Assembly: GCA_963717445.1 (NCBI GenBank)
Contig: OY970334.1
Location: 901,798-965,797 of the forward strand
Source: an uncultured Bacteroidota bacterium
Lineage (GTDB): Bacteria; Bacteroidota; Ignavibacteria; UBA10030; UBA8401
DNA: 64,000 bases
Direction of reading: 5' to 3'
The position numbers and the translations under genes were made by a program. Under the pieces are notes generated by a model. It was given only the letters and a program-made list of their open reading frames with translations, searched no databases and was not told the DNA's origin. This document shows, in pieces, positions 1-50,520 of this stretch. Position 1 is the first letter of the stretch. Each line of letters opens with the position of its first letter.

Positions 1-642
1 TTTGTATTGTTGAAATTAGGGCGTTGCCGACCCAATCCAGCAGTTCCCCCATTGCGAACGATACATACGTCTGAAGCTTTGCGATATGTCAAAATGCTTT
101 TGTAATTGGCATCGGTATGCGTGATGACGCCACTAACGTCGGATACCAATTCCCTAAGAACTTCCGTCATGTGTTGATGAATTCTCGCGTTGCGCGCGTA
201 GGTGACTATCGGGTCTTGATAATCGAAAACGGTTGCCGAGAAGTTTTTCCCGTAGTCGTTAAGAAATCCATCCCACCAATACGGCATTGCAATGATAGCA
301 ATCATTGGATTCTTGATTCTTTTTATTCTCTTATCGAACCATGTCTTAAAGAGCCATCGGTCGAAACCTGGAGTCAGGCTTCCCCTGTAAAACGTGGGAA
401 AAACCGGCGGCGACCACACTTCCAGCATTTCAGCAATATGCGGGAAGTGCACGGTCTCGCGGCGAAGCGGATAGGCAACAGTAGCGATAGATTCCCGAAC
501 AATGCCGGCAAAAGAATTTGGAGGATTTATATAAATCGCATGACATCCTATACGCAATAATTCTATTGCAAATGCCCGCGTTCTGCTTTGCTGGCTGTTC
601 CATGGTTGTGGGGAAAACAAGAGATACACTGGTTGGGGCATA
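1..642 (-). CDS. glycosyltransferase, GT-B fold (family 1-like); N-terminus is in the window, the rest runs off the 5' edge
   Basis: Reverse-strand translation from the ATG at 642-640 gives MPQPVYLLFSPQPWNSQQSRTRAFAIELLRIGCHAIYINPP..., with the PW..QRxQ..A.ELA N-terminal signature of GT1/GT4 enzymes. It is open to the window edge. It is absent from the ORF track only because no stop codon falls inside the window. Confidence 0.55.
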
Positions 643-747
643 GATAGACTCAATGTACAATGTACTGTTTGCTTTCTTGTCCCTTTGCGAGACGGCAGAA
701 CATTCTCTTTGACTTTTACGATTGTTTTCTTGATACCCTACAAATAT

Positions 748-1707: not shown

Positions 1708-1855
1708 AGTCCGCTCTCCTTACTATCGCTTGATGGTATGCCGCACTAAAAAATTTCAATCATTGTACTTTTAAAAAACCTGAACGAAGAGGGATGTTTC
1801 TGTAGATTCCTCTTTCCAGAAAACAATCTTGCGCAATGAAAAATGGTCGTTTCCT

Positions 1856-5011: not shown

Positions 5012-7123
5012 CTATTCCTCCACCCCTTTCGATTTCTCGTATTCCTCAATGATCTTCACAGCGACTTCGTGAGGAACTTCTTCGTAATGTGAGAACTTTT
5101 GCTTATGAATTCCCCGTCCTTGCGTCATTGAACGAAGCGTGGTGGAATACCGGTACAACTCTTTCAAGGGGACCAGCGCTTTGATGATCTGATGAGCATT
5201 GTCAGAATCCATCCCCAATATTTTTCCGCGCCGGCTCGACAAGTCCCCCATCACATCTCCCATGTGTTCTTCCGGAACCATCACCTCGACTTCATAGAGC
5301 GGCTCGAGCAAAATCGGCTTTGCTTCCTTGAAACCTTTTTTAAATGCCATCTTCCCAGCTATCTTGAAGGACATATCGTCGGAATCAACGTCATGATACG
5401 AACCGTAATGGAGTGTCGCTTTCACATCGACAACCTGATAGCCGGCGATGACTCCGCTCGTCAACGCCTCCACAATACCTTTTTCAACAGCCGGAACAAA
5501 TCTGCCGGGAACGACACCGCCGACAATTGCATCTTCAAATTCAAATCCGGTTCCGCGCTGGATCGGTTCAATTTTCAGATGGACGTGCCCGTATTGGCCG
5601 CGTCCGCCCGATTGCTTTTTGTGTTTATATTCGGCGTCGGCGACGACGCCCTTAATCGTTTCTTTGTAGGGTATGCGGGGCTCAACCACGTCGACATCCA
5701 CGCCGAATTTTTCTTTGAGACGTTTTATAATAATCGCAAGATGGAGTTCGCCCTGTCCCTGGACCACTGTCTGCTTCGTTTCGGGATCATAGTGAACGAT
5801 GAACGTGGGGTCTTCTTCGTGAAGCGAATGAAGACCGGAGCCGATTTTATCTTCTTCCCCTTTCGCCTTCGCCAGGATGGCGTTCGCGATAACCGGATCG
5901 GGAAAAACTATCGGTGGATAAAGAACAGGAAAGGTTTTAGCGCTCAATGTATTGTTGGTATGGGTATCTTTCAGCTTCACGACTGCCCCTAAATCCCCGG
6001 CGTTGATCTTTGCGACTTCTTTACGCTCACGGCCGTTCATGACAAAAATCTGGCCGAGCCTCTCGGACTTGCTGTTTGTCTCATTGAGTAAATCTATTCC
6101 TGCAGAAATGGAGCCGGTGATGACTTTGAAAAAGGAAAGCTCGCCGACGTGAGGCTCGGAGACGGTCTTGAAGACAAGCAATGACGGCGCTGCCGACGCA
6201 TCGATTTTCACTTCAATTTCCTTCTTGCTCGATGGTTCGATGCCATTACCATGACCGTGCTCGAGGGGTGACGGACAATACTTCACGATAAAATTCAGCG
6301 TATTCAACACGCCGATGTTAATCACCGGCGAGGCAGAAAAAATGGGAAATACTTTCCGCTCGACAATTCCCCGTTTCAACCCCACGCGAATATCTTCTTC
6401 CGAAAGGGTCCCATTCTCGAAGAATTTATTGAGCAGCATTTCATCGGACTCGGCGATTTTTTCTATCAACTCTTCGTGAAGGTGCGTGGCGCGCTCTTGC
6501 AATTCTGCAGGCACTGCCTCTTCGGTGAATTTTCCGTTCGTCGACGGTTCAAATTTCAACAGCTTCATCGAGAGAACGTCGACAACACCGGTGATGCCGG
6601 GCCCCGTACTCACGGGAAACGTTACAAGCACGGCGTCGTGAGAACATCGGTCTTTTATTGCGTTGACGGTGCGTTCGAAATCAATGTTATCGTGGTCGAC
6701 TTTTGTTATCACAAACAAGGACGGGAGAGAATACTCTTCAATATATTTCCAGACGATTTCCGTTCCGACTTCAACCCCCTCGAATGCCTTGACAAAAACG
6801 ATTGCCGCATCAGACACACGAAGCGCAGCTTTCACTTCGCCGGTGAAGTCCGTATATCCGGGAGTATCGAGAATATTCACTTTGGTTGCATCGAGATCGG
6901 TGACGAGCAGAGAGGTATTGATAGAAATGTGGCGTTCGATTTCGTCCTGATGGTAATCGGAAACCGACGACCCGTCGTCGACTTTTCCCTGGCGGTTCGT
7001 CGCCCCCGTTGCATAGAGTGCGGCTTCGGCGAAGGATGTTTTTCCCGAACCTCCATGGCCGATGAGTGCAACCGTTCTCACGGCATTTGAAGCGTATTCT
7101 TTTTGTAAAGGATGCTGGCTCAC
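5012..7123 (-). CDS. elongation factor G family translational GTPase (divergent paralog, 703 aa), GTG start
   Basis: The domain order is G domain, II, III, IV, V. G1 reads GHGGSGKTS (canonical AHIDAGKTT), G3 reads DTPGYTDF, and G4 reads TKVD (canonical NKxD). It starts at GTG 7123, with AAGGAG 8 nt upstream. Confidence 0.75.
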   Translation of the reverse strand: MSQHPLQKEYASNAVRTVALIGHGGSGKTSFAEAALYATGATNRQGKVDDGSSVSDYHQDEIERHISINTSLLVTDLDATKVNILDTPGYTDFTGEVKAALRVSDAAIVFVKAFEGVEVGTEIVWKYIEEYSLPSLFVITKVDHDNIDFERTVNAIKDRCSHDAVLVTFPVSTGPGITGVVDVLSMKLLKFEPSTNGKFTEEAVPAELQERATHLHEELIEKIAESDEMLLNKFFENGTLSEEDIRVGLKRGIVERKVFPIFSASPVINIGVLNTLNFIVKYCPSPLEHGHGNGIEPSSKKEIEVKIDASAAPSLLVFKTVSEPHVGELSFFKVITGSISAGIDLLNETNSKSERLGQIFVMNGRERKEVAKINAGDLGAVVKLKDTHTNNTLSAKTFPVLYPPIVFPDPVIANAILAKAKGEEDKIGSGLHSLHEEDPTFIVHYDPETKQTVVQGQGELHLAIIIKRLKEKFGVDVDVVEPRIPYKETIKGVVADAEYKHKKQSGGRGQYGHVHLKIEPIQRGTGFEFEDAIVGGVVPGRFVPAVEKGIVEALTSGVIAGYQVVDVKATLHYGSYHDVDSDDMSFKIAGKMAFKKGFKEAKPILLEPLYEVEVMVPEEHMGDVMGDLSSRRGKILGMDSDNAHQIIKALVPLKELYRYSTTLRSMTQGRGIHKQKFSHYEEVPHEVAVKIIEEYEKSKGVEE

Positions 7124-7214
7124 TATAGACTCCTTAATTTTTTTTGCGAGTAAGCGTGGACGAGATGTTTCATCCTGAGAAGTACTGTCGCGGACGGAAT
7201 AGTCTTCTCCGCGG

Positions 7215-7254
7215 ATGAAAGAAACAAGAAGGCAGTGTGAGAAAAACTCTCACA
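7215..7254 (-). terminator. putative intrinsic terminator downstream of the DUF948 gene
   Basis: A 7-bp stem TGTGAGA/TCTCACA with a 5-nt loop is followed on the minus strand by a T-rich run, CTGCCTTCTTGTTTCTTTC. Confidence 0.35.
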
Positions 7255-7271: not shown

Positions 7272-7658
7272 TTACCCTCGCAGGCGATTAATGAATGCGG
7301 CGATGCCTCGAACGACTGACCCAACGATGCCTGCGACTTCCAATACAGGCGCTTCAACTCGTTCCTGCACCTGGCGCTCGAATTCTACAATACTGTCGGC
7401 AATTTCTTTTATCGATTGAACGGAGCTTTTTATAATCGTCATTTGGTCGTCAATATTCGCCGTTATGGACCGAAGCTTAGAAGTGATCACCTCCATATTT
7501 TCCAGCACCGGAATCACCCTCACACTCACTTCTTTAACGTCGGTTCCAATTTGCCCGAGGATCGCCTTCACCTTTGTCAGGACGACAACGAGGTACACCG
7601 CCAACGCTGTCAGCGCCAAGACAAGGATAATCTGAGCCATTATCAAGAGAGTGTTCAC
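7272..7658 (-). CDS. DUF948-family membrane protein
   Basis: The 128-aa product has an N-terminal TM helix followed by a coiled region, typical of DUF948. Confidence 0.55.
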   Translation of the reverse strand: MNTLLIMAQIILVLALTALAVYLVVVLTKVKAILGQIGTDVKEVSVRVIPVLENMEVITSKLRSITANIDDQMTIIKSSVQSIKEIADSIVEFERQVQERVEAPVLEVAGIVGSVVRGIAAFINRLRG

Positions 7659-7692
7659 GGGGATCTCCGCTTATTGAAGTACAGGATTGTCG

Positions 7693-8085
7693 CTATGATT
7701 TGTTCTTTTCGCCCCGATACGCCTCAGTTCCCGCCCGCACAGCACTTTTTATTTTCGTTTCTTCAGTGCTCACTCTTTCCTTCGCGTCCGTAAGAATCTT
7801 CTCAGCGTCGACGAGAAGAGACTCGGCCCGCTTTTTTGCTTCTGTGATCAAATTCTCCGACCGCTTCTTCCCTTCGTTGATGATATCAACCGCCTTTGAC
7901 TTGGCAACGGTAATGTATCCCTCGGCATCGTCGATAATTTCTCCAGCCTTATTTTTGATATCCGCGCGCAGCTCCTTGCCCGGTTTCGGCGCATAGAGCA
8001 GCGCAACCAACGCTCCCACTACTCCTCCGGCAAGAAGTCCGATGAGCAGCCCTCTTCTCATTCCATTATCTTCTTCTGCAGACAT
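7693..8085 (-). CDS. YtxH-like protein
   Basis: MSAEEDNGMRRGLLIGLLAGGVVGALVALLYAPKPGKELR... has a Gly-rich TM segment and a helical tail. An internal ATG was chosen as the start. The longer ORF begins with a non-protein-like extension. Confidence 0.5.
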   Translation of the reverse strand: MSAEEDNGMRRGLLIGLLAGGVVGALVALLYAPKPGKELRADIKNKAGEIIDDAEGYITVAKSKAVDIINEGKKRSENLITEAKKRAESLLVDAEKILTDAKERVSTEETKIKSAVRAGTEAYRGEKNKS

Positions 8086-8172
8086 TGAATCCTCCAAGCA
8101 AACTAACGTTGAAATCGAATTGTGAAATAGAGTAACATTTTTTTCGAGAAAAATCAAGCAACTGAAATTTGC

Positions 8173-8295
8173 GGTAGTGCTCAAGTTTGGTAAGGTGATG
8201 GACACCTTACCGATTTACCTTACCAAATATTTTGCATAACGTGATTTTTGGGAGTGAGGTGTCCGTCACCTCTCGCTGGAGAAACAAAACTGACC
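8173..8295 (-). repeat. family-1 hairpin repeat, copy A (inverted relative to copy C)
   Basis: This roughly 123-bp intergenic element is near-identical to the reverse complement of 17071-17192. It contains the internal inverted pair AGGTGACGGACACCT / AGGTGTCCGTCACCT. Confidence 0.7.
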
Positions 8296-8494
8296 ACCAC
8301 CAAATTTACGGTAGCAGCACAATTTCGAAAGAGGTCGGACGCCTTGTTGATGTGCATCACCAAACATTCCAACGTCTCACAATGGTCCGGATAATGTGTC
8401 CGACATCTCATAAGCAAAAACGTACCACAACGTTTCCGGGTTTCGAAAATAAAAGGAACCGCTCATGTGACATCCACATGAGCAGTTCTTCAAA

Positions 8495-8590
8495 TTATCG
8501 GATCTTCTTCTTATGACGCATTTTCCGGAGACGCTTTTTTCTTTTATGCGTCGCCATTTTATGTCGTTTGCGTTTTTTTCCGCTAGGCAT
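8495..8590 (-). CDS. very basic 31-aa protein, bS22-like (putative small ribosomal protein)
   Basis: The product is MPSGKKRKRHKMATHKRKKRLRKMRHKKKIR. Its Lys/Arg-rich pattern resembles the bS22 family (KKRRKRMAKKKHRKLL...). It was not in the ORF track because it is under 60 aa. Confidence 0.4.
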   Translation of the reverse strand: MPSGKKRKRHKMATHKRKKRLRKMRHKKKIR

Positions 8591-8611
8591 ACAACATGCC
8601 CTCCTTAAGAA

Positions 8612-9490
8612 TTATTGTTGAATAGTTGAATGTTGAGTGAGTATCTGCTGCGCACGCTGTCCAATTTGCGTATTGGGATTCACATCAGCGGCCTTTTTGA
8701 ACCACTCGTTCGACAACGCAAGGTTTCCCTGATTGAGAGTCACGATGCCGAGGTTGAACATCGCCATTTGGTGCTTTGGATCGTATGTCAACGCCGTCTG
8801 CATTTCTTTTATCGCCGTTGGCGAATCGCCGCTTTCATAATAACATATTCCCATATCCACACGCGCATTGGCATCGGCTGGTTTGAGGTGTAAATATTTT
8901 TTGTACATTTCAATCGCACGGGGCATAAATTTCGCATCATGAAGGGCGTTTGCCAATTGGAGCAACGTGCCGGCATCGTCAGGATGTGCATCGGCATTTT
9001 TCTGGAGCTCCTCGATGTCGCTCACCAGCGTTGGGCTTACGGCGGGTCCGGAGTTATTGTCGACGGATTGATTTTCCGTTGACACCTCTTTTGGAGAGTT
9101 GCGCAATAAGCCAATACCGACAAGAACGATAACAATAACTGCCCCGGCGATCGACAATACTTTCCACGATTCGATCCTTTTTCCCGCTTCTCTTTTCCTG
9201 TCCGGCTGCCGGTCAGAAGCTGCTCCTTTTTTCTTTGCTGACGTTTTAGCCTGTGGTGCCGATGGCGCGCCGGTCAAAGCCGACCCGCAGCCGCTGCAGA
9301 CAACATTCTCAGACAAATTTGGAATTCCACAGGAAGGACAAACGATGGTCGATACCGAAGGGGCGCGTTCTTCTATTGCCGCCGTCTCCTCATCCCACAG
9401 CACTGCCATTCCGCACTTCGCGCAAAATTTATCACCAAGAGCGAGTGCCGACCCGCAACTCCCGCACAGAATGGATGGTTTTACAGCCAC
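8612..9490 (-). CDS. zinc-ribbon, single-TM and TPR-repeat protein
   Basis: It has N-terminal CxxC...CxxC pairs twice, a hydrophobic segment (IAGAVIVIVLVGIGLL) and C-terminal TPR-like repeats. Confidence 0.55.
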   Translation of the reverse strand: MAVKPSILCGSCGSALALGDKFCAKCGMAVLWDEETAAIEERAPSVSTIVCPSCGIPNLSENVVCSGCGSALTGAPSAPQAKTSAKKKGAASDRQPDRKREAGKRIESWKVLSIAGAVIVIVLVGIGLLRNSPKEVSTENQSVDNNSGPAVSPTLVSDIEELQKNADAHPDDAGTLLQLANALHDAKFMPRAIEMYKKYLHLKPADANARVDMGICYYESGDSPTAIKEMQTALTYDPKHQMAMFNLGIVTLNQGNLALSNEWFKKAADVNPNTQIGQRAQQILTQHSTIQQ

Positions 9491-9511
9491 GATGCTTTCT
9501 TTGCGAAAAAC

Positions 9512-9808
9512 TTAGCCAAGGGTTTTCTTAAGGTTCTCATTTACGATAGCTTTCAAATCTTTTGAGACTTTAAAAATTGGAACATAATGTTCGTCAACCT
9601 GCACTTGTTCGCCCGTGCGCGGGTTGCGAGCAACCCTCCCTTTCCGCTTCTTCACTTTGAAACTGCCGAAGCCCCGTATCTCAATATTTTTACCGTCACG
9701 CAACGAAGCGATCACGGTTTGGATGAATCCGTCGACAACCGCTTCAGTTTCAACCTTCGTCAAGCCTGTGCCCGAAGCAATGACGTCAACGATATCTGCT
9801 TTGGTCAA
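9512..9808 (-). CDS. hup: DNA-binding protein HU
   Basis: MTKADIVDVIASGTGLTKVETEAVVDGFIQTVIASLRDGKNIEIRGFGSFKVKKRKGRVARNPRTGEQVQV is a canonical HU/IHF fold sequence. Confidence 0.85.
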   Translation of the reverse strand: MTKADIVDVIASGTGLTKVETEAVVDGFIQTVIASLRDGKNIEIRGFGSFKVKKRKGRVARNPRTGEQVQVDEHYVPIFKVSKDLKAIVNENLKKTLG

Positions 9809-9826
9809 GTGCGTTCTCCTGTATTG

Positions 9827-10729
9827 TTACGGTTGTGTGAGTTTATATTGCAGCATCGGTTGGCTCAGCAGTTCCTGCTTTAAACCGACAATTTCCTCTT
9901 TCAGGCTGCCGAACAAAATGTCCGACAACCGCTCTTTTTTTCTCTCCTTGATAATTTTTGGAGTTCCAGAAATCTTGGCAAGATGAGCGGCGAGAGCAAT
10001 TGCGTCTTCGTACGTTCCCAGCGTGTCCACGAGCCCCACTTCGTACGCCTTTCTTCCCGTAAAGATTCTCCCGTCAGCGAGTTTTTTCGCAACCTCGGGC
10101 GAAAGCTTTCGTTCGGTTTCCACAACGCTAAGAAATTGCTGATAAACGTCGTCGATCGTTTCCTGAAAATATTTTTTTTCTTCCTCGGTCATCTCCCTGT
10201 ACGGACTCCCCGTGTCTTTGAACTTCCCGCTTTTCACCGTCGTAGTGCCGACCCCGACCTTGCCCATCAATTGATTGAAATTCATGAACTGTGAAATAAC
10301 GCCGATGCTCCCTGTTACCGTTCCGGGGTTTGCAACAATTTTACTCGAGCCGCACGAAACATAATACCCGCCGCTCGCCGCTACCGATCCCATGGAGACA
10401 ACGACCGGTTTTCCCTCGTCGCGTGTCTTCTTAACTTCTTCATAAATTTCCTGACTCGCCGAAACCCCCCCTCCCGGAGAGTCAACACGAAACACTATTC
10501 CCTTCACAGAAGAGTTCTCACGATACTTTTTGAACTGCCGGACAATATTATCCGACGAAAGAATTTCATCTTTCAACTCAACAATAGCCAGCGTTCCACC
10601 CGTGCCGGACGAATAATTTTCATCGTTGTCTCCCTGGAAGATAAAAAAAAGGATGGCTCCCCAAAACAAAACAAAAAGAAGGAACACTGTTCCGATGCCA
10701 GCAAGCACCCATTTTGTTGTTTTGGTCAT
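9827..10729 (-). CDS. sppA: signal peptide peptidase SppA (36K type)
   Basis: An N-terminal TM segment is followed by the S49 peptidase domain (GSVAASGGYYVSCGSSKIVANPGTVTGSIGV). Confidence 0.8.
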   Translation of the reverse strand: MTKTTKWVLAGIGTVFLLFVLFWGAILFFIFQGDNDENYSSGTGGTLAIVELKDEILSSDNIVRQFKKYRENSSVKGIVFRVDSPGGGVSASQEIYEEVKKTRDEGKPVVVSMGSVAASGGYYVSCGSSKIVANPGTVTGSIGVISQFMNFNQLMGKVGVGTTTVKSGKFKDTGSPYREMTEEEKKYFQETIDDVYQQFLSVVETERKLSPEVAKKLADGRIFTGRKAYEVGLVDTLGTYEDAIALAAHLAKISGTPKIIKERKKERLSDILFGSLKEEIVGLKQELLSQPMLQYKLTQP

Positions 10730-10819
10730 AGTATGGCGACGAAAAAAGTTCCTAAGTTGTTGAAACTTATATAATTATATAAAATTAGCCGCCGAAAGTC
10801 AAATGAATTCATGAAGGCA

Positions 10820-10909
10820 GGGTAGTAGACAATTTTGCGTTCTTGAGGTAGGTGGCGGACACCTTACTCCAAAAATCCAATTATACCAAAATATTTGGTA
10901 AGGTAAATC
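10820..10909 (+). repeat. family-1 hairpin repeat, truncated copy B, with a family-2-like terminus
   Basis: It starts with GGGTAGTAGACAATTTTG, resembling the X/Y terminal repeat. It then carries GGTGGCGGACACCTTACTCCAAAAATC...CAAAATATTTGGTAAGGTAAATC, homologous to the left half of copy C. Homology is lost after 10909. Confidence 0.5.
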
Positions 10910-10957
10910 ATGAACGTTTCCAACATCTGCTTGCGGTCTACGGAAATGAGCGGTTAT

Positions 10958-12037
10958 TTATTGCGCACTGGCGGATGTGTGTGCACGGCGATACGACCGG
11001 ACATTCCTTAAATGTTCCGCGAACGTTCTCGCAAACCGATGTCCCCCCAGTCCGTCGGCTACAAAGTAAAGGTAATTGTGTTTCGCAGGATACAATGCGG
11101 CAAGAATGGATTTTTTCCCCGGATTACTGATAGGCCCAGGAGGTAGTCCATAGTGCTGATAGGTATTGTACGGGGAATCAATCTTGAGGTCGTTGTAGAG
11201 GAGTCTGCGCGGTCCATCGGGGACGATATACTGAATAGTCGGATCGGCCTCCAGTTTCATTCCCCGGCGAAGGCGATTGTAGTATAATCCTGCAATGATC
11301 GGCCGCTCTCGGTCAAGAACTGCCTCTCCCTCAACGATAGAGGCCATAGTCAACACCTGGCTAATGGTCATTTTCATCTCGCGGGTTCGCCGCTGCAAGC
11401 TGTCCGAGAAAAAATTTCTAAACTGGGTGAGCATATCGCGCACAATTTCTTTTTCGTCCGTCTGCCAGTAGAACTCATACGTTTCGGGCATCAAGAATCC
11501 TTCCAACGAAGATCCTCCGTGATTATTCAGACCGATGAGCGATGTATCGCTAAACTGCTGCGCCAGCTTTAACGAATCGATCCCTACTTCCCTCGCCAAA
11601 ATTTTTGCGATCAGCGTTCCGCGAAGCCCCTCATAAATCGTCACCGAAGGGTTTGCAGTCGACGTTCCTGTGCTAATGGCGTAAAGAATCTCACGGTTAG
11701 AGACGCCGCTTGGGAAACTATACTTTCCGATCTTGATTTTTCCCGCGTAGCCGAAAATTTTTCCACTGATTCTAAAAAGAGCCGGATGGGAGAGAACACC
11801 CGCAGAAGAGAACACGTCAACCACTTGAGCAAAACTTTCACCTCTGTTGACAGTGACAATCTTCGGTGAAGCCTCAAACAAGTTGGGTTTCCACAAGAGG
11901 AAATAGAGCGCCAGAATAACAAGAAAGAACGGGATTGTCACCGCCGTCAGGAGCGCTTTGCCCGAAATGCCGCTACTTTTGCGAAGAAGATTTCTTACGT
12001 TCAACCATTGCCTCACGTTCAAGTTTCCGCGATTCAT
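10958..12037 (-). CDS. mltG: endolytic murein transglycosylase MltG (YceG-like)
   Basis: The product has a TM anchor plus a YceG domain (GESFAQVVDVF..., LYYNRLRRGMKLEADPTIQY). The start was placed at an internal ATG, which still overlaps the chorismate mutase gene by 64 nt. The longer ORF overlaps it further. The start is uncertain. Confidence 0.7.
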   Translation of the reverse strand: MNRGNLNVRQWLNVRNLLRKSSGISGKALLTAVTIPFFLVILALYFLLWKPNLFEASPKIVTVNRGESFAQVVDVFSSAGVLSHPALFRISGKIFGYAGKIKIGKYSFPSGVSNREILYAISTGTSTANPSVTIYEGLRGTLIAKILAREVGIDSLKLAQQFSDTSLIGLNNHGGSSLEGFLMPETYEFYWQTDEKEIVRDMLTQFRNFFSDSLQRRTREMKMTISQVLTMASIVEGEAVLDRERPIIAGLYYNRLRRGMKLEADPTIQYIVPDGPRRLLYNDLKIDSPYNTYQHYGLPPGPISNPGKKSILAALYPAKHNYLYFVADGLGGHRFARTFAEHLRNVRSYRRAHTSASAQ

Positions 12038-12296
12038 CGATGATGCGCTCAAAAAGACGGCGAAGTGCCGCATCGGATAACGGGCCTTTATTGGATCCGA
12101 GGACATTATCCAAAACTTCATGTTCCCGCTGCGGCGAATATGCGTCCAGGCCGAGCTGCTCTTTTATCTTCCCAATTTCGTCGGCATAACGGGCACGTAT
12201 GTTAAGCAGGTCGACCAATTTTTTGTCGATGTCGTCAATTTTGATTCTCCACTCATCTATTGAACCCATTGGACGCCCCGATATGATTGTGGTCAA
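11973..12296 (-). CDS. chorismate mutase (AroQ class)
   Basis: DEWRIKIDDIDKKLVDLLNIRARYADEIGKIK is the CM_2 helical signature. Confidence 0.65.
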   Translation of the reverse strand: MTTIISGRPMGSIDEWRIKIDDIDKKLVDLLNIRARYADEIGKIKEQLGLDAYSPQREHEVLDNVLGSNKGPLSDAALRRLFERIIDESRKLEREAMVERKKSSSQK

Positions 12297-12323
12297 TTAT
12301 GGTAACAAACAATAACGGCCCGA

Positions 12324-13118
12324 CTATTCCCGTATCAGCGACAACAGAAATGCGCCGGCCGATGCGACAACACCGTCGATGCTCTTTTCATTTTCAATGC
12401 TGCGAAGCAATGCCGACCCTACGACAACGCCATCGGCATATCGGCACATCAACTCTACCTGTTCCCGTTTCGAAATGCCAAAGCCAACAACAAAAGGCTT
12501 GGCTGTGTTCTTTTTCATCCTTTGCAGAAAATCCTCAAGCGCACGGCTATGGCCGAAACTTGAGCGCGCGCCCGTTACTCCGGTCACCGAAACACAGTAT
12601 GAAAAATCGGTCGAGAGAGAATCAAGATATCGAATTCTCTTTTCCGGGGTTGTCGGTGCGATCAAAAAAATATTGCTTACTGCGTACTTTAACGAGAGAT
12701 TTCGCCAATCATCGCTTTCATCGGGCAACAAATCCGGAACAATAACTCCATCCACTCCGCACTGTTTTGCTTCGCGAAGAAATTTTTCCATTCCATACCG
12801 GAGAATCGGATTCGCATAACCCATCAACACCACCGGGATCGCCGACGTTTGCCGTGCTTCCTTCACCGATTCCAATATCCCGCCGATTGTCACGCCGTTC
12901 TCGATCGCAACGTGGGACGAATGTTGGATCGTTACTCCATCGGCAATAGGGTCCGAAAACGGAATACCTACTTCGATCAGACTTGCGCCCGCCCTCTCCA
13001 ACCCCAGAATGAGAGGAACGGTTGTCCCCTTGATCGGAAACTCCGGAGTGATGTACGGAATAATCGCTTTGCTCTTTTGGGAGTGCAAATGCTGAAAGAC
13101 AGCACGGATACGGTTCAC
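12324..13118 (-). CDS. trpA: tryptophan synthase alpha subunit
   Basis: IIPYITPEFP, GASLIEVGIPFSDPIADG and GFGISKREQV are TrpA motifs. The GTG start at 13118 gives M-NRIRAVFQHL and removes the overlap with tsaD. Confidence 0.85.
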   Translation of the reverse strand: MNRIRAVFQHLHSQKSKAIIPYITPEFPIKGTTVPLILGLERAGASLIEVGIPFSDPIADGVTIQHSSHVAIENGVTIGGILESVKEARQTSAIPVVLMGYANPILRYGMEKFLREAKQCGVDGVIVPDLLPDESDDWRNLSLKYAVSNIFLIAPTTPEKRIRYLDSLSTDFSYCVSVTGVTGARSSFGHSRALEDFLQRMKKNTAKPFVVGFGISKREQVELMCRYADGVVVGSALLRSIENEKSIDGVVASAGAFLLSLIRE

Positions 13119-13131
13119 GTTGATATCGGTT

Positions 13132-14160
13132 TCATGTGGTGAATTGCGCGCCAAGCTCCAGGCCTGCAACAGCGCTCTCCGAAAATGAAGAAAATGACTT
13201 TCGAAGAAATTTTCGGTAACCGACTGCCGCGATCATTGCGCCATTATCGGTGCAATACTCAAACCTGGGGATAAATAATCGCAATTGAGCATCTGAAGCC
13301 GCTCTACTCATTGCATGGCGAAGTGCAGAGTTCGCAGAGACGCCCCCGGCCATTGCAATATCATTGACGCCGCATTCTTTCGCTGCGGCCATCGTTTTGC
13401 TCACCAGGACATCAACCACCGACGCTTGGAAGCTCGCACAAATGTCCGCTAACCGGTGCTGTGATATACCAACGTTATGATTGTCGCGCAGATAGTACAA
13501 AACAGAAGTTTTGATTCCGCTGAAACTGAATCCAAAAGGATCGCCTTCTAACAACGACCTTGGAAAATTTATGGCATCGGCATTTCCCTCTTTTGCAAGA
13601 GCATCTATTTTGGGCCCTCCCGGATATCCGAGTCCTAGCATCTTCGCTACTTTATCGAACGCTTCCCCCGCCGCATCATCGCGGGTCTGACCGATCAATT
13701 CATATTGAAAGTCTTCGCGCATGAATACCAGTTGCGTGTGGCCTCCGGAAACGGTAAGGCAAAGAAAGGGGAAGGATGGAAACGGTTTTTCAATAAAATT
13801 CGAATAGATGTGGGCCTCCATGTGATTGACGCCGACAAATGGAATCCCCAGGCCGTAGGCGAACGATTTGCCGAAATTCAGACCGACAAGGAGCGATCCC
13901 ATCAAACCCGGGCCTATAACTCCTGCCACGGCGGCCAAATCGTTTTGGCCGGCATCGGCTTTCGCCAATGCCTCTTGAACAATGGGAATCATCAGTTTTT
14001 GATGAGCACGGGAAGCAAGCTCGGGCACAACCCCGCCGTATTGCTCATGGACGAATTGTGAAGAGACGACATTCGAAAGCAATACGCCATCCCGCATAAT
14101 AGCGGCTGAGGTTTCATCGCATGAAGTTTCTATGCCGAGAATTATCACAGGCTTGCTCAT
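13132..14160 (-). CDS. tsaD: tRNA N6-adenosine threonylcarbamoyltransferase TsaD
   Basis: MSKPVIILGIETSCDETSAAI... shows the Kae1/Gcp family across its full length. Confidence 0.9.
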   Translation of the reverse strand: MSKPVIILGIETSCDETSAAIMRDGVLLSNVVSSQFVHEQYGGVVPELASRAHQKLMIPIVQEALAKADAGQNDLAAVAGVIGPGLMGSLLVGLNFGKSFAYGLGIPFVGVNHMEAHIYSNFIEKPFPSFPFLCLTVSGGHTQLVFMREDFQYELIGQTRDDAAGEAFDKVAKMLGLGYPGGPKIDALAKEGNADAINFPRSLLEGDPFGFSFSGIKTSVLYYLRDNHNVGISQHRLADICASFQASVVDVLVSKTMAAAKECGVNDIAMAGGVSANSALRHAMSRAASDAQLRLFIPRFEYCTDNGAMIAAVGYRKFLRKSFSSFSESAVAGLELGAQFTT

Positions 14161-14344
14161 ATCTTAAATATAACAAATGAGGGCTGAATATCAAGAACTC
14201 CCGAGACGCATGATAGTGGACATTTTGCTCCTCGGATAACAGATGTCGGACACATTGTTGACTCTTTATCTTGCTCGCTCGCAAGAATTTTTCTACATTT
14301 AACCGTGCAACAATGACAATTTAAGAAGTAGACAAAAAGTACGT

Positions 14345-15820
14345 TTGATGAAGCGATTCCTGCTCTTTTTTCTTCTCGCCGCGCTCACGGTAGTTATCGA
14401 GAGTTGTTCCACAATTGAACGATTGACGCAGGGTCCTCCGCCTCTGGAACAATTTCGCAATAACATCGATGCCGTTCTTTCAGATTCTATTTTTACGCCA
14501 GCGAATTGTGGAATAAAAATCGTTTCGCTCGACAATAACGAGACTCTCTACGAACATGATGCACGAATGCTCCTGCGGCCAGCATCCAACATGAAATTGG
14601 TCACTGCCGCTGCGGCCTTGTTGACGCTTGGAAAAGGTTTCCTTTTTAAAACGGAGATGTATTCGGATACTCTTATCAGCGACAGTGTCCTGCATGGAAA
14701 TATTTATCTCAAAGGATTTGGCGACCCCGATTTCAATTCGGCGCAGCTTGCCGAGCTTCTCTCATTGTTGAAAAGAAAAGGTATTTCGAAAATCGAAGGC
14801 AACATCGTCGGCGACGCGAGCTACTTCGACGACGAGCGCTGGGGTGCAGGCTGGATGTGGGACGATGAGCCGGCCGGATTTGTAGCGTATAACTCAGCTC
14901 TCTCAATCAACAGGAATTGCGTAGAAGTGACGGTAACTGCGTCAAACAACGTCGGCGACACTGCCCTCGTCTCGATCGATCCGCAGACCCACTACGTTTC
15001 TCTTCTCAACAGCGCAACCACCGATGCCGACACGGCGGCACTGACACTAGAAATCTCACGGAAATTCAAAGAGAGACTCAATGTCATTACTGTGAAAGGA
15101 AAAATCCCGCGGGGGACGAAACCACAAAAAGAGGCCATTTCAGTATGGGGACCCGAGATGTATTTCCTCACGCTCGTCAAAGAAGAATTGCAGCGGCAAC
15201 ATATCTCTTTCGATGGACAAATCCTTTTCGATAGCATTCCATCGGCTGCCCTCCTCATCGCCCGCCACTGCCAGCCGATCGATTCGGTGGTCGTATTCCT
15301 CGACAAGATGAGCGACAACCTTTCGGCTGAAAATACGCTGAAAATTCTCGGAGCTGAAAAGTACGGCGTTCCGGGGACGACGGAACACGGCATCTCGGCC
15401 GTGAAACGCGATCTCAATTCGTTCAACATCGACACGACAAGATTTCTCATGGTAGACGGTTCGGGCGTCTCTCACTATGATTTGTTAACACCGGAAATTC
15501 TCGTCGATCTTCTTCGCGGGATGTATTTCCGAAAAGATATTTTTGACCTATACTATTCGTCGCTCCCTAACGCCGGAGTCGACGGTTTGCTCGTAAACAG
15601 GATGAAAGGAACGCCGGCCCAAAACAATCTCCATGCAAAAACGGGAACGCTCGGCGGAGTGAGCACATTGTCCGGTTACGTCCGCACGGCGGACGGCGAA
15701 ATGCTCGCATTCTCGATCATGATGCAGAATTACATCGGATCGGGGGAACCGTACAGGAAAATGCAAGATGCCATCGGCGCACTCATGGCGGGGTTTTCAC
15801 GAAAAAGCCGAGCCCGGTAG
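14345..15820 (+). CDS. dacB: D-alanyl-D-alanine carboxypeptidase/endopeptidase (PBP4, peptidase S13)
   Basis: It has a signal peptide, RPASNMKLVTAAAAL (SxxK) and the S13 architecture. Confidence 0.8.
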   Translation: MMKRFLLFFLLAALTVVIESCSTIERLTQGPPPLEQFRNNIDAVLSDSIFTPANCGIKIVSLDNNETLYEHDARMLLRPASNMKLVTAAAALLTLGKGFLFKTEMYSDTLISDSVLHGNIYLKGFGDPDFNSAQLAELLSLLKRKGISKIEGNIVGDASYFDDERWGAGWMWDDEPAGFVAYNSALSINRNCVEVTVTASNNVGDTALVSIDPQTHYVSLLNSATTDADTAALTLEISRKFKERLNVITVKGKIPRGTKPQKEAISVWGPEMYFLTLVKEELQRQHISFDGQILFDSIPSAALLIARHCQPIDSVVVFLDKMSDNLSAENTLKILGAEKYGVPGTTEHGISAVKRDLNSFNIDTTRFLMVDGSGVSHYDLLTPEILVDLLRGMYFRKDIFDLYYSSLPNAGVDGLLVNRMKGTPAQNNLHAKTGTLGGVSTLSGYVRTADGEMLAFSIMMQNYIGSGEPYRKMQDAIGALMAGFSRKSRAR

Positions 15821-15885
15821 CAAATATAAAACGGCTGCCGTTCTTTACGGCAGCCGTTTTAGTGTGCAGCACCAATATCGTTGTA

Positions 15886-16890
15886 CTATTTCAGAGTTCT
15901 AATTCTCACGTCTCCTCCCGACGTTTCCGCCCGGATGATATTTCCGCCGCCGTTGATTTGACCGCGCAATTCTTCATCCGACATATCCCCTTTGACCGTG
16001 ATAGGGAGCTCACATCGAACCTTTCCGCCGCTGGTCGACGCTTCAAGATTTGCCGATATTGAGTCGCTGACAAAAATATTAATGTCCCCGCCCGAGCTGT
16101 GAACATCGATACCTTTATTTTCGCCCGTCAATTTTAACGTGACACCGCCGCCTGAAGTCTCTGCATGGACATTCCCTTCGACGGGCGAAAGTTCGATTTC
16201 GCCGCCGGAGGTTTCGACATTGACGTCGCCGGTAATATTGTCTGCGTTAACGTTGCCGCCCGACGTTACACCTTTCAGAGACCCTTTAATGTTCTTTGCA
16301 TCAATATTGCCTCCCGACGTGTTGATATCGACCGTGCCGTCGACCCCTTCGATTGAGAGGTTGCCGCCGCTTGTTTCGAACCGCACATCTCCCTCCAAAT
16401 CGCGTAACGTCATATTTCCACCCGACGTGTTCGCTTTTATCGAGAATTTTTTAGGCACTGCAATATGATAGCTTACGTCCAAATCGCCCACATCCCATTT
16501 AAAAAAACTATTGTCGTTCGTTTTACCGATGATTGAAATGCGATCCGTGCCTTCCGAGAACTTCACATCGAACTTGTCGGACCGGCGGTCGCTTCCTTCG
16601 ATGTCGACCTTCACAAGAACTTCCTCTTTGTCCCACGTCTGGACATCGACATCGCCAACATCGGTATCGAGGAGCAGGTTGCCGCCGCTTTTCACCGAGA
16701 ATGTCTTTTCAATATGCCGGTTGGTTGACGATTCATCCTGCCCGAACATCGACCGCAATTCATCGCGGGGAGATTCGGCTTCCGGCTTTTCAAATTGTGA
16801 ATTTGAATACAGCACCATGACGCCGCCGAACAATACACCGATAACTATGAAAGCAATAATTTTAGCCCATGAACCAGGGGATATTTTCAT
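15886..16890 (-). CDS. DUF4097-family beta-helical repeat protein (putative adhesin)
   Basis: An N-terminal TM is followed by many TSGGN/TSGGD repeat units. Confidence 0.6.
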   Translation of the reverse strand: MKISPGSWAKIIAFIVIGVLFGGVMVLYSNSQFEKPEAESPRDELRSMFGQDESSTNRHIEKTFSVKSGGNLLLDTDVGDVDVQTWDKEEVLVKVDIEGSDRRSDKFDVKFSEGTDRISIIGKTNDNSFFKWDVGDLDVSYHIAVPKKFSIKANTSGGNMTLRDLEGDVRFETSGGNLSIEGVDGTVDINTSGGNIDAKNIKGSLKGVTSGGNVNADNITGDVNVETSGGEIELSPVEGNVHAETSGGGVTLKLTGENKGIDVHSSGGDINIFVSDSISANLEASTSGGKVRCELPITVKGDMSDEELRGQINGGGNIIRAETSGGDVRIRTLK

Positions 16891-17070
16891 AACAACTCCT
16901 CGTTATGTGTGCATACTCATATTACCTTGTATAAAGGTAACGAAAGTTTGACCGAAAAGTTACAGATGGGTAGCAACGCAGGTTTAAGTTTTTCGATTGA
17001 TGCGGGAATGGGGAGTTTATTCGTTGAGGCAAATCTAGAAGACCGGACCACTGTCCGATAATTGGTACTG

Positions 17071-17192
17071 GTCAGTTTTGTTTTTCCAGCGAGAGGTGAC
17101 GGACACCTCACTCCAAAAAATCACGTTATGGCAAAATATTTGGTAAGGTAAATCGGTAAGGTGTCCGTCACCTTACCAAACTTGAGCACTAC
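17071..17192 (+). repeat. family-1 hairpin repeat, copy C
   Basis: Its reverse complement matches copy A over about 120 bp. GAGGTGACGGACACCTC and GGTAAGGTGTCCGTCACCTTACC form mutually complementary arms. Confidence 0.7.
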
Positions 17193-17261
17193 CCGATAAA
17201 TGCGTTCGTTGCTTCTCTACACTGAATTTAGTATCATTTCTTACCAATCTTTGAATACAAC

Positions 17262-22415: not shown

Positions 22416-22616
22416 CATGTAAAAATATATCAATCCCGACAGGAATAATCAACCGTGGGACTCAGTCGGTAGATGTTGGCACCTTATCTCACGTCGTTAT
22501 TCATTGAAATATCTAACGAAATGTATTGACACGGTGTCCGACATGTTTCCAAAATTATCCAATCGTGCGATCTTCACAAAAATATTGCGCGCGCTTCCTC
22601 ACATACCCCTTAACAA

Positions 22617-44018: not shown

Positions 44019-44219
44019 ATGAAAACGTTTAGAAAATATGCTATTATGGTCTTCGTCGTTCTAGCTACTGTGCTCGGCACCGCGTGGTATTACGCTTCGC
44101 GCGAGCAGTTTATCCGAGTGTCATTGATTTGCTATGGTTTCTTGGTCGGCTACCTGGCAGCGTGGTTTCACATCGGACGCCGTCTAGAATTTAGAAAGTT
44201 TGGTAATGACTCATTTTGA
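44019..44219 (+). CDS. hypothetical small two-TM membrane protein (66 aa); its last codons lie inside the terminal repeat of element X
   Basis: The product is MKTFRKYAIMVFVVLATVLGTAWYYASREQFIRVSLICYGFLVGYLAAWFHIGRRLEFRKFGNDSF. The stop TGA at 44217-44219 falls inside the GGTAATGACTCATTTTGA terminal repeat. Confidence 0.3.
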   Translation: MKTFRKYAIMVFVVLATVLGTAWYYASREQFIRVSLICYGFLVGYLAAWFHIGRRLEFRKFGNDSF

Positions 44220-44754
44220 GAAAGAAAATCGAGTTTCTGAGGTTTAATGGAGTTAGTGTATGTTACTTTCTTTCCGAGGAAGTAACCAAAGAAATCTCTC
44301 GTCCGAAGGACCCCTTCGGGGAAATCGTAACACACGGATTCAATCCCAGCCGCACATGCCGTCAATTTCGGTGCAAGAGAGCGTCGAATATTTTGGTTTG
44401 ATGGTCAAGCGCCGAAATTGAAACCCTTCGATTGAATCCTTCCCGTCCGCAGACCTGACGATTTCGATTAATGTTGCAAAAGCTGCATGTGTTGTATCCT
44501 CGGAATCGGGGGCAGTGGGGGGTGGGGGCGATGCGCGCGTTGAGAAAACGGCTGGCATGTGCAGGTGGCAAGGGGGAGCCGTTTTCTCTTAGCTATGTGC
44601 AGGAAAGCATCGCCAGCATTCCGATTCCGAGAAGCTCTTCCCGCTTTCCAAAAATATGAAAGGCGGGATCCCGTACAGCGGGACTTTGCTTCTTTCTCTG
44701 GTACCAGAGAAAGAAGGATGACTTCAAGCCTATTATTCAAAATGAGTCACGACC
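44202..44754 (+). mobile_element. family-2 MITE-like structured element X (553 bp) with 18-bp terminal inverted repeats and an 8-bp target-site duplication
   Basis: The left terminus is GGTAATGACTCATTTTGA. The reverse complement of the right terminus is GGTCGTGACTCATTTTGA. It is flanked by the perfect direct repeat GAAAGTTT (44194-44201 and 44755-44762). It is about 85-90% identical to the reverse complement of 49894-50520. Confidence 0.65.
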
Positions 44755-46283: not shown

Positions 46284-46364
46284 TGCACAATACGATATGA
46301 GAGTTTTCAAGTTTACGAGGAGTGGTTTACATCAATTATTTTACAAATAGCTTAGGAGGATAAC

Positions 46365-47800: not shown

Positions 47801-47803
47801 TCC

Positions 47804-49893: not shown

Positions 49894-50520
49894 GGTAGTG
49901 ACTCATTTTAAATGATAGTCTCGAAGTTACTCTTCTTTCTCTGGCGCCAGAGAAAGAAGCAAAGAGAGCTTCTCAGAATCGGAATGCTGGCGATGCTTTC
50001 CCACACACAGCCGGGAGAAAACTGCTCCCGCTTGCCACCTGGACATGCCAGCCGTTTTCTCAACGCACGCATCGCCCCCCCACCCCCACTGTCGCCGATT
50101 CCGAGGATACAACACATGCAGCTTTTGCAACAATAATCGAAATCGTCAGGTCGGCGGGTGGGAAGGATTCAATCGAAGGGTTTTCCCGAAAGGGATCCCT
50201 TGGGGACAATTTCGGCGCTTGACCATCAAACCACAATATTCGACGCTCTCTTGCGCCGAAATTGACGGCATGTGCGGCTGGGATTGAATCCGTGTGTTAC
50301 GATTTCCCCAAAGGGGTCCTTCGGACGAGAGATTTCTCCCGCTTTAAAAACAAAAAAGGCGGGATGCCGTAAAGCGGCATTTGGTTACTTTTCCCGCTTC
50401 TATTAAAAATTTTAAAGAGCGGGATCCCGTACAGCGGGACTTCCTCGGAAAGAAAGTAACATACACTAACTCCATTAGACCTCAGACGCTCGTTTTTCTT
50501 TCTCAAAATGAGTTGCTACC
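49894..50520 (-). mobile_element. family-2 MITE-like structured element Y (627 bp), inverted copy of X
   Basis: The left terminus is GGTAGTGACTCATTTTA. The reverse complement of the right terminus is GGTAGCAACTCATTTTGA. The right end lies 3 nt from the GH9 stop (50524). The left end lies 19 nt from the transporter start. Confidence 0.6.

What the first reader, a model, noticed from the sequence alone, without database searches (positions are those of the whole stretch)
8173..17192. Second repeat family of about 120-bp intergenic double-hairpin elements in three places, sharing the terminal GGGTAGTG motif with X/Y
Copies sit at 8173-8295, 10820-10909 (truncated) and 17071-17192. Copy A is the reverse complement of copy C at over 90% identity. 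Each contains the mutually complementary arms AGGTGACGGACACCT and AGGTGTCCGTCACCT, plus alternative pairings (TTTGGTAAGG / GGTAAGGTG / CACCTTACCAAA) like terminator and anti-terminator pairs. The element termini read GGTAGTGCTCAAGTTTGG, while X/Y read GGGTAGTGACTCATTTTGA. Copy B begins GGGTAGTAGACAATTTTG. The shared 5' end suggests one transposase recognises both families. Copy A is additionally bracketed by the 13-bp direct repeat AAATTT(G/A)CGGTAG, at 8165-8177 and 8302-8314.
Basis: seen in the sequence. Interest (0 to 1): 0.55.

Follow-up and report, generated by a model that had tools for sequence, protein, structure and literature searches.

The report
IS1-type miniature transposon (MITE) family
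The repeats are real: they are about 130-bp non-coding "miniature transposons" whose ends and 8-bp insertion scars match those of IS1-family insertion sequences, an ordinary kind of bacterial junk-DNA mobility here seen in an uncultured Bacteroidota genome.

Summary
Copies A (8173-8301, minus orientation) and C (17064-17193) are 95.4% identical. B (10821-10942) is a decayed full-length copy, not a truncated one. I found three more copies: A2 (8310-8429, tandem to A), a half copy D (14212-14258) and a decayed copy E (22456-22552). Each intact copy has imperfect terminal inverted repeats of the form GGnnnTG...TTTG and an 8-bp target-site duplication. C is absent from four related syntenic genomes. 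Two of them (L053, L073) align right up to the insertion point, and L053 shows a single, clearly homologous copy of the 8-mer. None of those relatives has A, A2 or B either. One relative (L054) has a copy of the family at a different site.

The X/Y terminus GGTAGTGACTCATTTTG is the exact terminal repeat of IS1-family elements found in metagenomes. One of these (L069) carries an intact 283-aa IS1-family transposase and a perfect 8-bp duplication.

The terminator/anti-terminator pairings exist only in A and C and are not conserved in the family. No Rfam family matches. This is a new member of a known kind, of modest interest.

The parts
17064..17193 (+). Copy C, an intact 130-bp MITE. Left TIR GGTACTGGTCAGTTTTG; right TIR (rc) GGTAGTGCTCAAGTTTGG. 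Central 15-bp arms at 17094-17108 and 17160-17174 enclose a roughly 50-nt loop that holds AAATATTTGGTAAGGTAAATC.
   Evidence: Absent from relatives L053, L054, L055/56 and L073.
17056..17063 (.). Left copy of C's 8-bp target-site duplication, CGATAATT.
   Evidence: Relative L053 has a single CGATCATT here.
17194..17201 (.). Right copy of C's 8-bp target-site duplication, CGATAAAT.
8173..8301 (-). Copy A, an intact 129-bp MITE, 95.4% identical to C in reverse-complement orientation.
   Evidence: Absent from L054 and L055.
8165..8172 (.). A's target-site duplication, copy 1: AAATTTGC.
8302..8309 (.). A's target-site duplication, copy 2: AAATTTAC. It directly abuts the terminus of A2.
8310..8429 (-). 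Copy A2, an older diverged member (about 62% identical to A/C) in tandem with A. Terminus GGTAGCAGCACAATTTCG; arms GATGTCGGACAC / GGCGTCCGACCTC.
   Evidence: nhmmer E 1.7e-9 (6.5e-9 against the larger set); alignments
10821..10942 (+). Copy B, a decayed full-length member (68-70% identical to A/C). Left TIR GGTAGTAGACAATTTTG. The second arm has degenerated. Possible decayed duplication GAAGGCAG / GAAATGAG (5/8).
   Evidence: Absent from L054 and L055.
14212..14258 (+). Copy D, a left-half remnant (TIR-like GATAGTGGACATTTTG plus arm GATGTCGGACAC) in the tsaD/dacB spacer.
   Evidence: (weak hits)
22456..22552 (+). Copy E, a decayed member. The arms ATGTTGGCACC / GGTGTCCGACAT are recognisable but the loop motif is eroded.
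   Evidence: nhmmer E 0.027
16969..17055 (+). C2, an older unrelated mini-element of about 90 bp with an IS1-type left end GGTAGCAACGCAGGTTTAAG. C's duplication abuts its right end. Also present in relative L053.
44202..44754 (+). X, a 553-bp non-coding element. TIRs GGTAATGACTCATTTTGA / GGTCGTGACTCATTTTGA; perfect 8-bp duplication GAAAGTTT.
49894..50520 (-). Y, a 627-bp inverted copy of X. Ends GGTAGTGACTCATTTTAA / GGTAGCAACTCATTTTGA.

Best explanation
The repeats are a family of non-autonomous DNA transposons (MITEs) of about 130 bp. They have no coding capacity. They are moved in trans by a DDE transposase that recognises the roughly 17-18-bp terminal inverted repeats (GGnnnTG-N-TTTG) and makes 8-bp staggered cuts in the target, which leaves an 8-bp duplication. 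The transposase is most likely an IS1-family enzyme.

The same terminal signature is carried by the larger X/Y elements and by several other mini-element families in related genomes. Together they form one 'superfamily' of passengers of one transposase lineage.

The whole element is a near-palindrome (TIRs plus a 15-bp internal inverted repeat), so a single strand folds into one long hairpin. That is typical MITE anatomy, not a regulatory switch.

Shown: repeat family, TIRs, duplications, empty sites in relatives, and identity of the X/Y TIR with that of IS1-family elements.
Inferred: that an IS1-family transposase co-resident in this genome mobilises A/C, and that the internal arms and loop are inherited from the master copy rather than selected at each locus.
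For: 1. Family and anatomy. A and C are 95.4% identical. Six members in the window were found with a profile. TIR pairs have 7/8, 7/8 and 8/8 matching 8-bp flanks for A, C and X.

2. Mobility.
- Four syntenic relatives (82-89% identity for the neighbouring M28 peptidase) lack A, A2, B and C (L073 covers only the C site).
- L053 has a single CGATCATT where the window has CGATAATT-[C]-CGATAAAT.
- L073 gives a second empty site.
- L054 carries one family member at a different spot, in the tsaD/dacB spacer. It sits in a tandem array with two other mini-elements, one of which has a perfect 8-bp duplication TTCTGCCT.
- Different mini-elements occupy the same spacers in different relatives.

3. Transposase link.
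- The 18-mer GGTAGTGACTCATTTTGA hits 5 viral-collection contigs, while two control 18-mers hit none.
- L058 7291-9720 has these TIRs, the duplication AAGGCGCG and a truncated IS1 transposase (NF033558, E 2e-6).
- L063 1541-4245 has perfect TIRs, the duplication TGTCCGCA and a frameshifted IS1 transposase. The repaired protein scores NF033558 E 2e-12, with a PF03400 hit.
- L068/L069 356-3104 has the same TIR, the duplication AAAAAATC and an intact 283-aa protein. Full-length homologues are named 'IS1 family transposase' by JGI and NCBI.
- L065-67 carry the TIR GGTAGTGACGCAGTTTGG, which matches the A/C end at 14 of 18 positions, with the duplication ATGTATCT and an IS1 ORFA.

4. Literature. IS1-family ends are GGnnnTG with direct repeats of 8-9 bp (table in PMC10425158; PMC6807381). 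ISDge2 (IS1 family) has the TIR GGTAGTGGCTGC (PMC7674623). An ISAba3-like IS1 has the TIR GGTGGTGTTTCAAAAAGT... and 8-bp duplications (PMC6382973). MITEs share TIRs and duplication length with the parent IS and move in trans (PMC6382973).

5. The whole element folds as one hairpin, dG -43.7 / -48.2 kcal/mol, z -3.5 / -4.2.
Against: - No autonomous element with exactly the A/C termini was found. The best match is 14/18.
- The window contains no transposase with these ends, and the rest of the 4.24-Mb genome could not be read. A co-resident IS1 is therefore unproven.
- GGnnnTG plus an 8-bp duplication is also typical of IS6/IS26 (PMC6807381). From memory, ISPna2-group IS1595 elements have similar ends.
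- The IS1 assignment of the metagenomic transposases rests on sub-threshold model scores (47.5 bits against a cut-off of 100; 20.6 against 24.1) plus the sources' annotation of close full-length homologues.
- Only a handful of copies of this particular family were seen outside the window.
- The duplications of A and C each carry one mismatch.
Confidence: 0.85

Rival explanations
1. Same kind of element (a MITE), but mobilised by a transposase of another family that also uses GGnnnTG-type ends and 8-bp duplications, such as IS6/IS26 or IS1595 (ISPna2 group), rather than IS1.
For: PMC6807381 states that GGnnnTG is present in most IS6/IS26 members and that their duplication is 8 bp. No autonomous partner with the exact A/C termini was recovered.
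Against: Every transposase-bearing element recovered with the X/Y TIR, or with the close variant GGTAGTGACGCAGTTTGG, encodes an IS1-family protein. IS26-type elements move through cointegrates, which suits short non-autonomous derivatives poorly (general knowledge; PMC6807381 describes the mechanism).
Confidence: 0.07
2. The elements are REP doublets (REPINs / BIME-like) moved by a RAYT tyrosine transposase. The GTAG within GGTAGTG would be the conserved REP head.
For: REPs carry a conserved 5' GTAG/GTGG head and form hairpins (PMC2817692, retrieved). The elements are extragenic palindromes that occur in tandem arrays.
Against: REP/RAYT (IS200-like) movement leaves no target duplication (general knowledge). 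Here 8-bp duplications flank A, C, X and the L054 M3 element, and a relative shows a single copy of the 8-mer. The same termini bound DDE IS1 transposase genes. No RAYT gene was seen, though none was specifically searched for outside 41.6-52.5 kb.
Confidence: 0.02
3. A cis-regulatory RNA (attenuator or riboswitch-like leader) with mutually exclusive terminator and anti-terminator hairpins, controlling the downstream genes.
For: A and C lie 79 and 68 nt upstream of ytxH and the M28 peptidase gene, in the same sense. Alternative pairings exist in A and C. The central helix shows some covariation: 86.5% of cells paired and 3 pairs with changes on both sides.
Against: - The alternative pairings are confined to A/C.
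- There is no U-tract on the sense strand, and the only terminator-like hit is antisense.
- B and the L002-group copies are antisense to their neighbours.
- The downstream genes are unrelated (ytxH, M28 peptidase, Lhr helicase, kduI, aminotransferase).
- The orthologous genes in relatives lack the element entirely.
- No Rfam family matches. The best hit is a spurious miRNA model at E 0.3, 24 bits against a gathering score of 57.
Confidence: 0.03

Closest known systems
Bacterial MITEs derived from DDE insertion sequences (for example MITEAba12 / ISAba12 in Acinetobacter, PMC6382973)
   Same: Small (about 130 bp), non-coding and intergenic. Imperfect TIRs that match those of a transposase-bearing IS. 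A fixed-length target duplication equal to that of the IS. Presence/absence polymorphism between related genomes. Inferred mobilisation in trans.
   Different: The parent lineage here is IS1-like, not IS5-like. The duplication is 8 bp, not 9. The co-resident parent IS was not seen. Several unrelated MITE bodies share the same ends and pile up in the same spacers.
IS1 family insertion sequences, including long passenger-carrying forms (ISfinder: ends GGnnnTG, direct repeats 8-9 bp)
   Same: Ends of the form GGnnnTG (GGTAGTG, GGTACTG, GGTGGTG, GGTAATG). 8-bp duplications. The X/Y TIR is identical to the TIR of metagenomic IS1-family elements carrying a transposase of about 282 aa. ISDge2's TIR GGTAGTGGCTGC begins with the same 7-mer (PMC7674623).
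   Different: The window elements encode nothing. Their interior, a 15-bp inverted repeat around a 50-nt loop, has no counterpart in the IS1-type elements recovered. Those elements share only the first 18-19 bp.
REP / REPIN / BIME elements mobilised by RAYTs (PMC2817692)
   Same: Extragenic, palindromic, with a GTAG-containing head, and occurring in clustered arrays.
   Different: REPINs make no target duplication and depend on a Y1 transposase. Here 8-bp duplications and DDE IS1 partners are seen.

Membership tests
MITE (non-autonomous DDE transposon) | Small size (about 50-600 bp) and no transposase gene | tested here: met
   Elements are 129-130 bp, with no ORF of 60 aa or more inside them. 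Definition taken from PMC6382973.
MITE (non-autonomous DDE transposon) | Terminal inverted repeats | tested here: met
   GGTACTGGTCAGTTTTG / GGTAGTGCTCAAGTTTG in C and GGTGGTGGTCAGTTTTG / GGTAGTGCTCAAGTTTG in A. The ends pair in the folded strand.
MITE (non-autonomous DDE transposon) | Target-site duplication of fixed length flanking each copy | tested here: met
   8 bp: A 7/8, C 7/8, X 8/8, L054 M3 8/8. B and A2 match only 5/8 (decayed).
MITE (non-autonomous DDE transposon) | Insertion polymorphism, with an empty site holding one copy of the target | tested here: met
   L053 has a single CGATCATT at C's site. L073 also lacks C. No relative has A, A2 or B. L054 has a copy elsewhere.
MITE (non-autonomous DDE transposon) | Many dispersed copies in the genome | tested here: inconclusive
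   Six copies, all within 8-22.5 kb of the 64-kb window. The rest of the 4.24-Mb genome could not be read. Only about 8 further loci were found in public collections.
MITE (non-autonomous DDE transposon) | An autonomous IS with the same TIRs and duplication length | tested here: inconclusive
   An exact match exists for the X/Y TIR (L063, L069). For the A/C TIR only a 14/18 match was found (L065), and there was no exact hit.
IS1-family derivative | Ends GGnnnTG | tested here: met
   GGTAGTG, GGTACTG, GGTGGTG, GGTAATG and GGTCGTG at element ends. Rule taken from PMC10425158 and PMC6807381.
IS1-family derivative | Direct repeats of 8-9 bp | tested here: met
   8 bp throughout.
IS1-family derivative | Cognate transposase is an IS1-family DDE protein | tested here: inconclusive
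   Elements with the same or nearly the same TIR encode proteins that hit only IS1 models, all below the curated cut-offs: NF033558 at E 2e-12 (47.5 bits, cut-off 100) and PF03400 at 20.6 bits (cut-off 24.1). Full-length homologues, 68-82% identical to the repaired L063 protein, are named IS1 family transposase by JGI/NCBI. These come from other organisms.
IS1-family derivative | IS1-family transposase gene present in the same genome | not testable with these tools
   The 4.24-Mb source contig is not retrievable. There is none in the window.
REP/REPIN (RAYT-mobilised) | No target-site duplication; associated Y1 (RAYT) transposase | tested here: not met
   8-bp duplications are present and an empty site carries a single 8-mer.
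Transcription attenuator / riboswitch | Conserved alternative structures, fixed sense orientation upstream of a functionally coherent gene set, and a match to a known RNA family | tested here: not met
   The alternative pairings occur only in A/C. Copies occur in both orientations next to unrelated genes. Rfam gives only a spurious hit at E 0.3.

The most novel reading that the evidence does not exclude
The element may be more than passive junk. All non-decayed copies, in at least three distinct lineages, keep a 13-15-bp inverted repeat with compensatory changes. This repeat surrounds a loop with an invariant 21-mer (AAATATTTGGTAAGGTAAATC). The module could be a functional cargo, for instance a second transposase or host-factor binding site, or an RNA hairpin that acts on neighbouring transcripts.

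Separately, new insertions land with their 8-bp duplication exactly abutting the terminus of a resident element (A/A2, C/C2, L054 M3/M2). This suggests either end-directed target capture by the IS1-type transposase or re-use of a duplicated hot-spot target. Either process would build MITE arrays.
Probability: 0.15. Interest if true: 0.5.

Novelty: new member of a known kind. Interest (0 to 1): 0.3.

Why it matters
It explains a cluster of odd intergenic hairpins as transposon debris. Annotators should therefore not call them riboswitches, terminators or sRNAs.

It ties at least two repeat families in this genome (A/C and X/Y), and several more in its relatives, to one transposase lineage, an IS1-family subgroup that is very abundant in environmental metagenomes (at least 8000 homologues).

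It marks intergenic hot spots that are hit repeatedly and independently in related genomes. Such MITE-rich spacers are useful strain markers. They can also alter the expression of adjacent genes, but nothing here shows that they do.

Tried and rejected
- Rfam at gathering thresholds over the whole window, and at E <= 1 over 8.0-17.4 kb, gave only tRNAs and a spurious miRNA-hairpin hit.
- The sigma-70 promoter and intrinsic-terminator scan found no promoter in the elements. It found one marginal terminator-like hairpin, antisense to the neighbouring genes.
- The genome-contig scan with the 20-mer loop motif gave only 4 loci and did not include the window's own genome.
- The metagenome scan with the 18-mer gave 48 loci, of which only 5 were real family members. 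The rest were chance matches to the 18-mer. This ascertainment by the loop motif means its 'invariance' across lineages cannot be used as evidence of selection.
- Looking up the window's own M28 peptidase to reach the source genome failed twice. A 99.9% identical MAG contig (L072, GCA_049589135.1) added no polymorphism.
- I looked for a transposase between X and Y. The genes there are only carbohydrate-related.
- Viral-collection scans for the exact A/C terminus and for GGTAGTGACGCAGTTTGG gave no hits.
- I compared the L002 and L004 orthologous copies with their flanks by eye on the alignment. The element is about as diverged as the surrounding spacer, so there is no sign of extra constraint.
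- I considered sigma-54 and Bacteroidetes-type (-7 TAnnTTTG) promoter readings of the loop motif by eye. Neither fits all copies.

Full report
**Observation**

The repeat finder recovers A/C and A/B as inverted repeats (I5, I6, I8).

After the boundaries are refined, A (8173-8301, reverse-complemented) and C (17064-17193) are 124/130 = 95.4% identical. B (10821-10942) is 68-70% identical to them. It runs the full length with a degenerated second arm, so it is decayed rather than truncated.

A profile built from the core found further copies:
- A2 at about 8310-8429, tandem to A (E 1.7e-9).
- A left-half remnant at 14212-14258.
- A decayed copy at 22456-22552.

All six lie in intergenic spacers between 8 and 22.5 kb. 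The neighbouring genes are ordinary housekeeping genes: ytxH, sppA, mltG, trpA, tsaD, dacB, a DUF4097 gene and an M28 peptidase gene.

**Anatomy**

Each intact element has imperfect terminal inverted repeats:
- C: GGTACTGGTCAGTTTTG on the left and GGTAGTGCTCAAGTTTGG on the right (reverse complement).
- A: GGTGGTGGTCAGTTTTG on the left and the same right end as C.

Each is also flanked by an 8-bp direct repeat with one mismatch:
- C: CGATAATT / CGATAAAT.
- A: AAATTTGC / AAATTTAC.

Inside, a 15-bp inverted repeat (AGGTGACGGACACCT / AGGTGTCCGTCACCT) encloses about 50 nt that contain AAATATTTGGTAAGGTAAATC. Either strand folds into one long hairpin in which the TIRs and the arms both pair (dG -43.7 and -48.2 kcal/mol, z -3.5 and -4.2).

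That pentamer begins both A and the adjacent A2.

**Evidence of mobility**

I fetched syntenic contigs from relatives through homologues of the neighbouring M28 peptidase. They were L053 (88% aa), L054 (82%), L055/L056 (85%) and L073 (89%).

None of them has a family member at the A, A2, B or C sites (alignments). L053 and L073 cover only the C site.
- At C's site, L053 has a single CGATCATT where the window has CGATAATT-[C]-CGATAAAT.
- L073 is a second empty site.
- L054 does have one family member, but in the tsaD/dacB spacer. There it sits in a tandem array with two other mini-elements. One of these has TIRs GGTGGTGTTACAGTTTG / GGTAGTGTTCAGTTTGG and a perfect 8-bp duplication TTCTGCCT.

Other mini-elements with GGTAGTG-type ends occupy the same spacers in L054 and L055. 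L054's element in the ytxH spacer uses the orthologous 8-mer (GAATCTGC) that A used (AAATTTGC).

These are the marks of repeated, independent DDE-type insertion into intergenic hot spots.

**Which transposase**

X (44202-44754) has TIRs GGTAATGACTCATTTTGA / GGTCGTGACTCATTTTGA and a perfect 8-bp duplication GAAAGTTT. Y is its inverted copy. The window itself holds no transposase with such ends, and the genes between X and Y are carbohydrate genes.

Scanning the viral-contig collection for GGTAGTGACTCATTTTGA gave five loci, whereas two control 18-mers gave none. The elements recovered from this scan and from follow-up protein searches were:

| Locus | Span | TIR | 8-bp duplication | Transposase |
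|---|---|---|---|---|
| L058 | 7291-9720 | GGTAGTGAC(G/T)CATTTTGA | AAGGCGCG | truncated IS1 (NF033558, E 2e-6) |
| L063 | 1541-4245 | GGTAGTGACTCATTTTGAA (perfect) | TGTCCGCA | frameshifted IS1; repaired protein NF033558 E 2e-12, plus a PF03400 hit |
| L065-67 | 1892-3504 | GGTAGTGACGCAGTTTGG (14/18 to the A/C end) | ATGTATCT | IS1 ORFA only |
| L068/L069 | 356-3104 | GGTAGTGACTCATTTTG | AAAAAATC | intact, 283 aa, plus ParE-like passenger genes |

At least 8000 homologues of the repaired L063 protein exist. Many full-length ones (about 282 aa) are named 'IS1 family transposase' by JGI and NCBI.

The literature agrees:
- IS1-family ends are GGnnnTG with direct repeats of 8-9 bp (PMC10425158 table; PMC6807381).
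- ISDge2 (IS1 family) has the TIR GGTAGTGGCTGC (PMC7674623).
- An ISAba3-like IS1 has GGTGGTGTTTCAAAAAGT... with 8-bp duplications (PMC6382973).

PMC6807381 also notes that IS6/IS26 shares GGnnnTG and 8-bp duplications. I therefore keep that family as a minor rival for the A/C family, whose exact autonomous partner I did not find.

**The core hairpin elsewhere**

The loop 20-mer and 18-mer found the same stem-loop in uncultured Bacteroidetes MAGs and in metagenomes (L001-L004, L029, L030, L039, L042, L050). These copies sit at unrelated intergenic sites and in both orientations relative to neighbouring genes.

Across 12 copies, the 15-bp helix is paired in 86.5% of cells, and three pairs show changes on both sides. 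The inverted repeat is therefore kept at the level of the master copies. Individual old copies (B, the L054 copy, E) have let it decay.

Because those loci were ascertained by the loop motif, its invariance is not evidence of selection. A2, D and E have lost it.

**Terminator and anti-terminator**

The extra pairings come from a duplicated GGTAAGGTG / CACCTTACC segment that only A and C have. The one terminator-like hit is antisense to the flanking genes and has a poor T-tract. Rfam has nothing above noise. I reject a regulatory-switch reading.

**Unexplained**

In three arrays the new element's duplication directly abuts the terminus of a resident element: A next to A2, C next to the older C2 at 16969-17055, and L054 M3 next to M2.

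Two models fit:
- Re-use of a preferred 8-mer that the first insertion duplicated. This gives T-old-T-new-T. The outer flanks of A2 and M2 match at 5/8 and 6/8.
- Target capture next to a transposase-bound end.

I recall, from memory only, that IS1 hot spots were reported to resemble IS1 ends (Galas, Calos and Miller 1980). I did not verify this.

**Verdict**

This is a real repeat family, correctly read by the first stage as MITE-like elements that share a transposase signature with X/Y. I identify that signature as IS1-type.

It is a new member of a known kind, in a MITE-rich, uncultured Bacteroidota genome. The organism assignment rests on source names, and on the 99.9% identity of contig L072, from the MAG assembly GCA_049589135.1, to the window.

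Interest is modest.

Noticed in passing
window 8494-8589 (-), terminator 8456-8488 (-): A 31-aa, extremely basic ORF (MPSGKKRKRHKMATHKRKKRLRKMRHKKKIR) with a Shine-Dalgarno-like AAGGAGG upstream. It is highly conserved in relatives L054/L055 and is followed by a strong intrinsic terminator. It looks like a small ribosomal-type protein (bS22-like, from memory). There is no Pfam hit.
   Followed up: partly
window 44650-44695, 50346-50391, 50406-50451: A third, tiny (about 45-55 nt) hairpin repeat with core GCGGGATCCCGTACAGCGGGA, nested inside X and Y. X has one copy where Y has none, and Y has two where X has none. It has therefore moved since X and Y diverged. Chance expectation is 0.
   Followed up: partly
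window 44890-44906 (-), body about 44763-44906: A solo IS1-type terminus GGTAGTGTCCTAATTTG right next to X. The same TIR bounds a roughly 290-bp mini-element in relative L055, in the sppA/mltG spacer (GGTAGTGTCCTAAATCGAG / GGCATTGTCCTAATTTGGG).
   Followed up: partly
window 16969-17055: C2, an older mini-element of about 90 bp with left end GGTAGCAACGCAGGTTTAAG (compare the IS1-type TIR GGTAGTGACGCAGTTTGG in L065). It is also present in relative L053. C inserted exactly at its right terminus.
   Followed up: partly
window 44202-50520: X and Y lie in inverted orientation around 5.1 kb of carbohydrate genes (glucuronyl-esterase-like, beta-propeller, PfkB kinase, sugar transporter). The layout is composite-transposon-like, but no transposase lies inside.
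   Followed up: partly
L054 about 6829-7220 (tsaD/dacB spacer) and about 840-1000: Tandem array of three different mini-elements with GGTAGTG-type ends. One family carries the hairpin GTCATTCCCGCGAAAGCGG and recurs in the ytxH spacer of the same contig, with the 9-bp duplication GGAATCTGC.
   Followed up: partly
L068/L069 356-3104; L063 1541-4245; L058 7291-9720: IS1-family elements of 2.4-2.7 kb that carry passenger genes (a ParE-toxin-like pair and unknown ORFs) between the TIRs. They are long, cargo-bearing IS1 relatives. About 8000 or more homologous transposases exist in public metagenomes.
   Followed up: partly
window 8165-8172 versus L054 (ytxH spacer): Two different mini-element families inserted at the orthologous 8-mer (AAATTTGC / GAATCTGC) in two lineages. 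This is an insertion hot spot.
   Followed up: no
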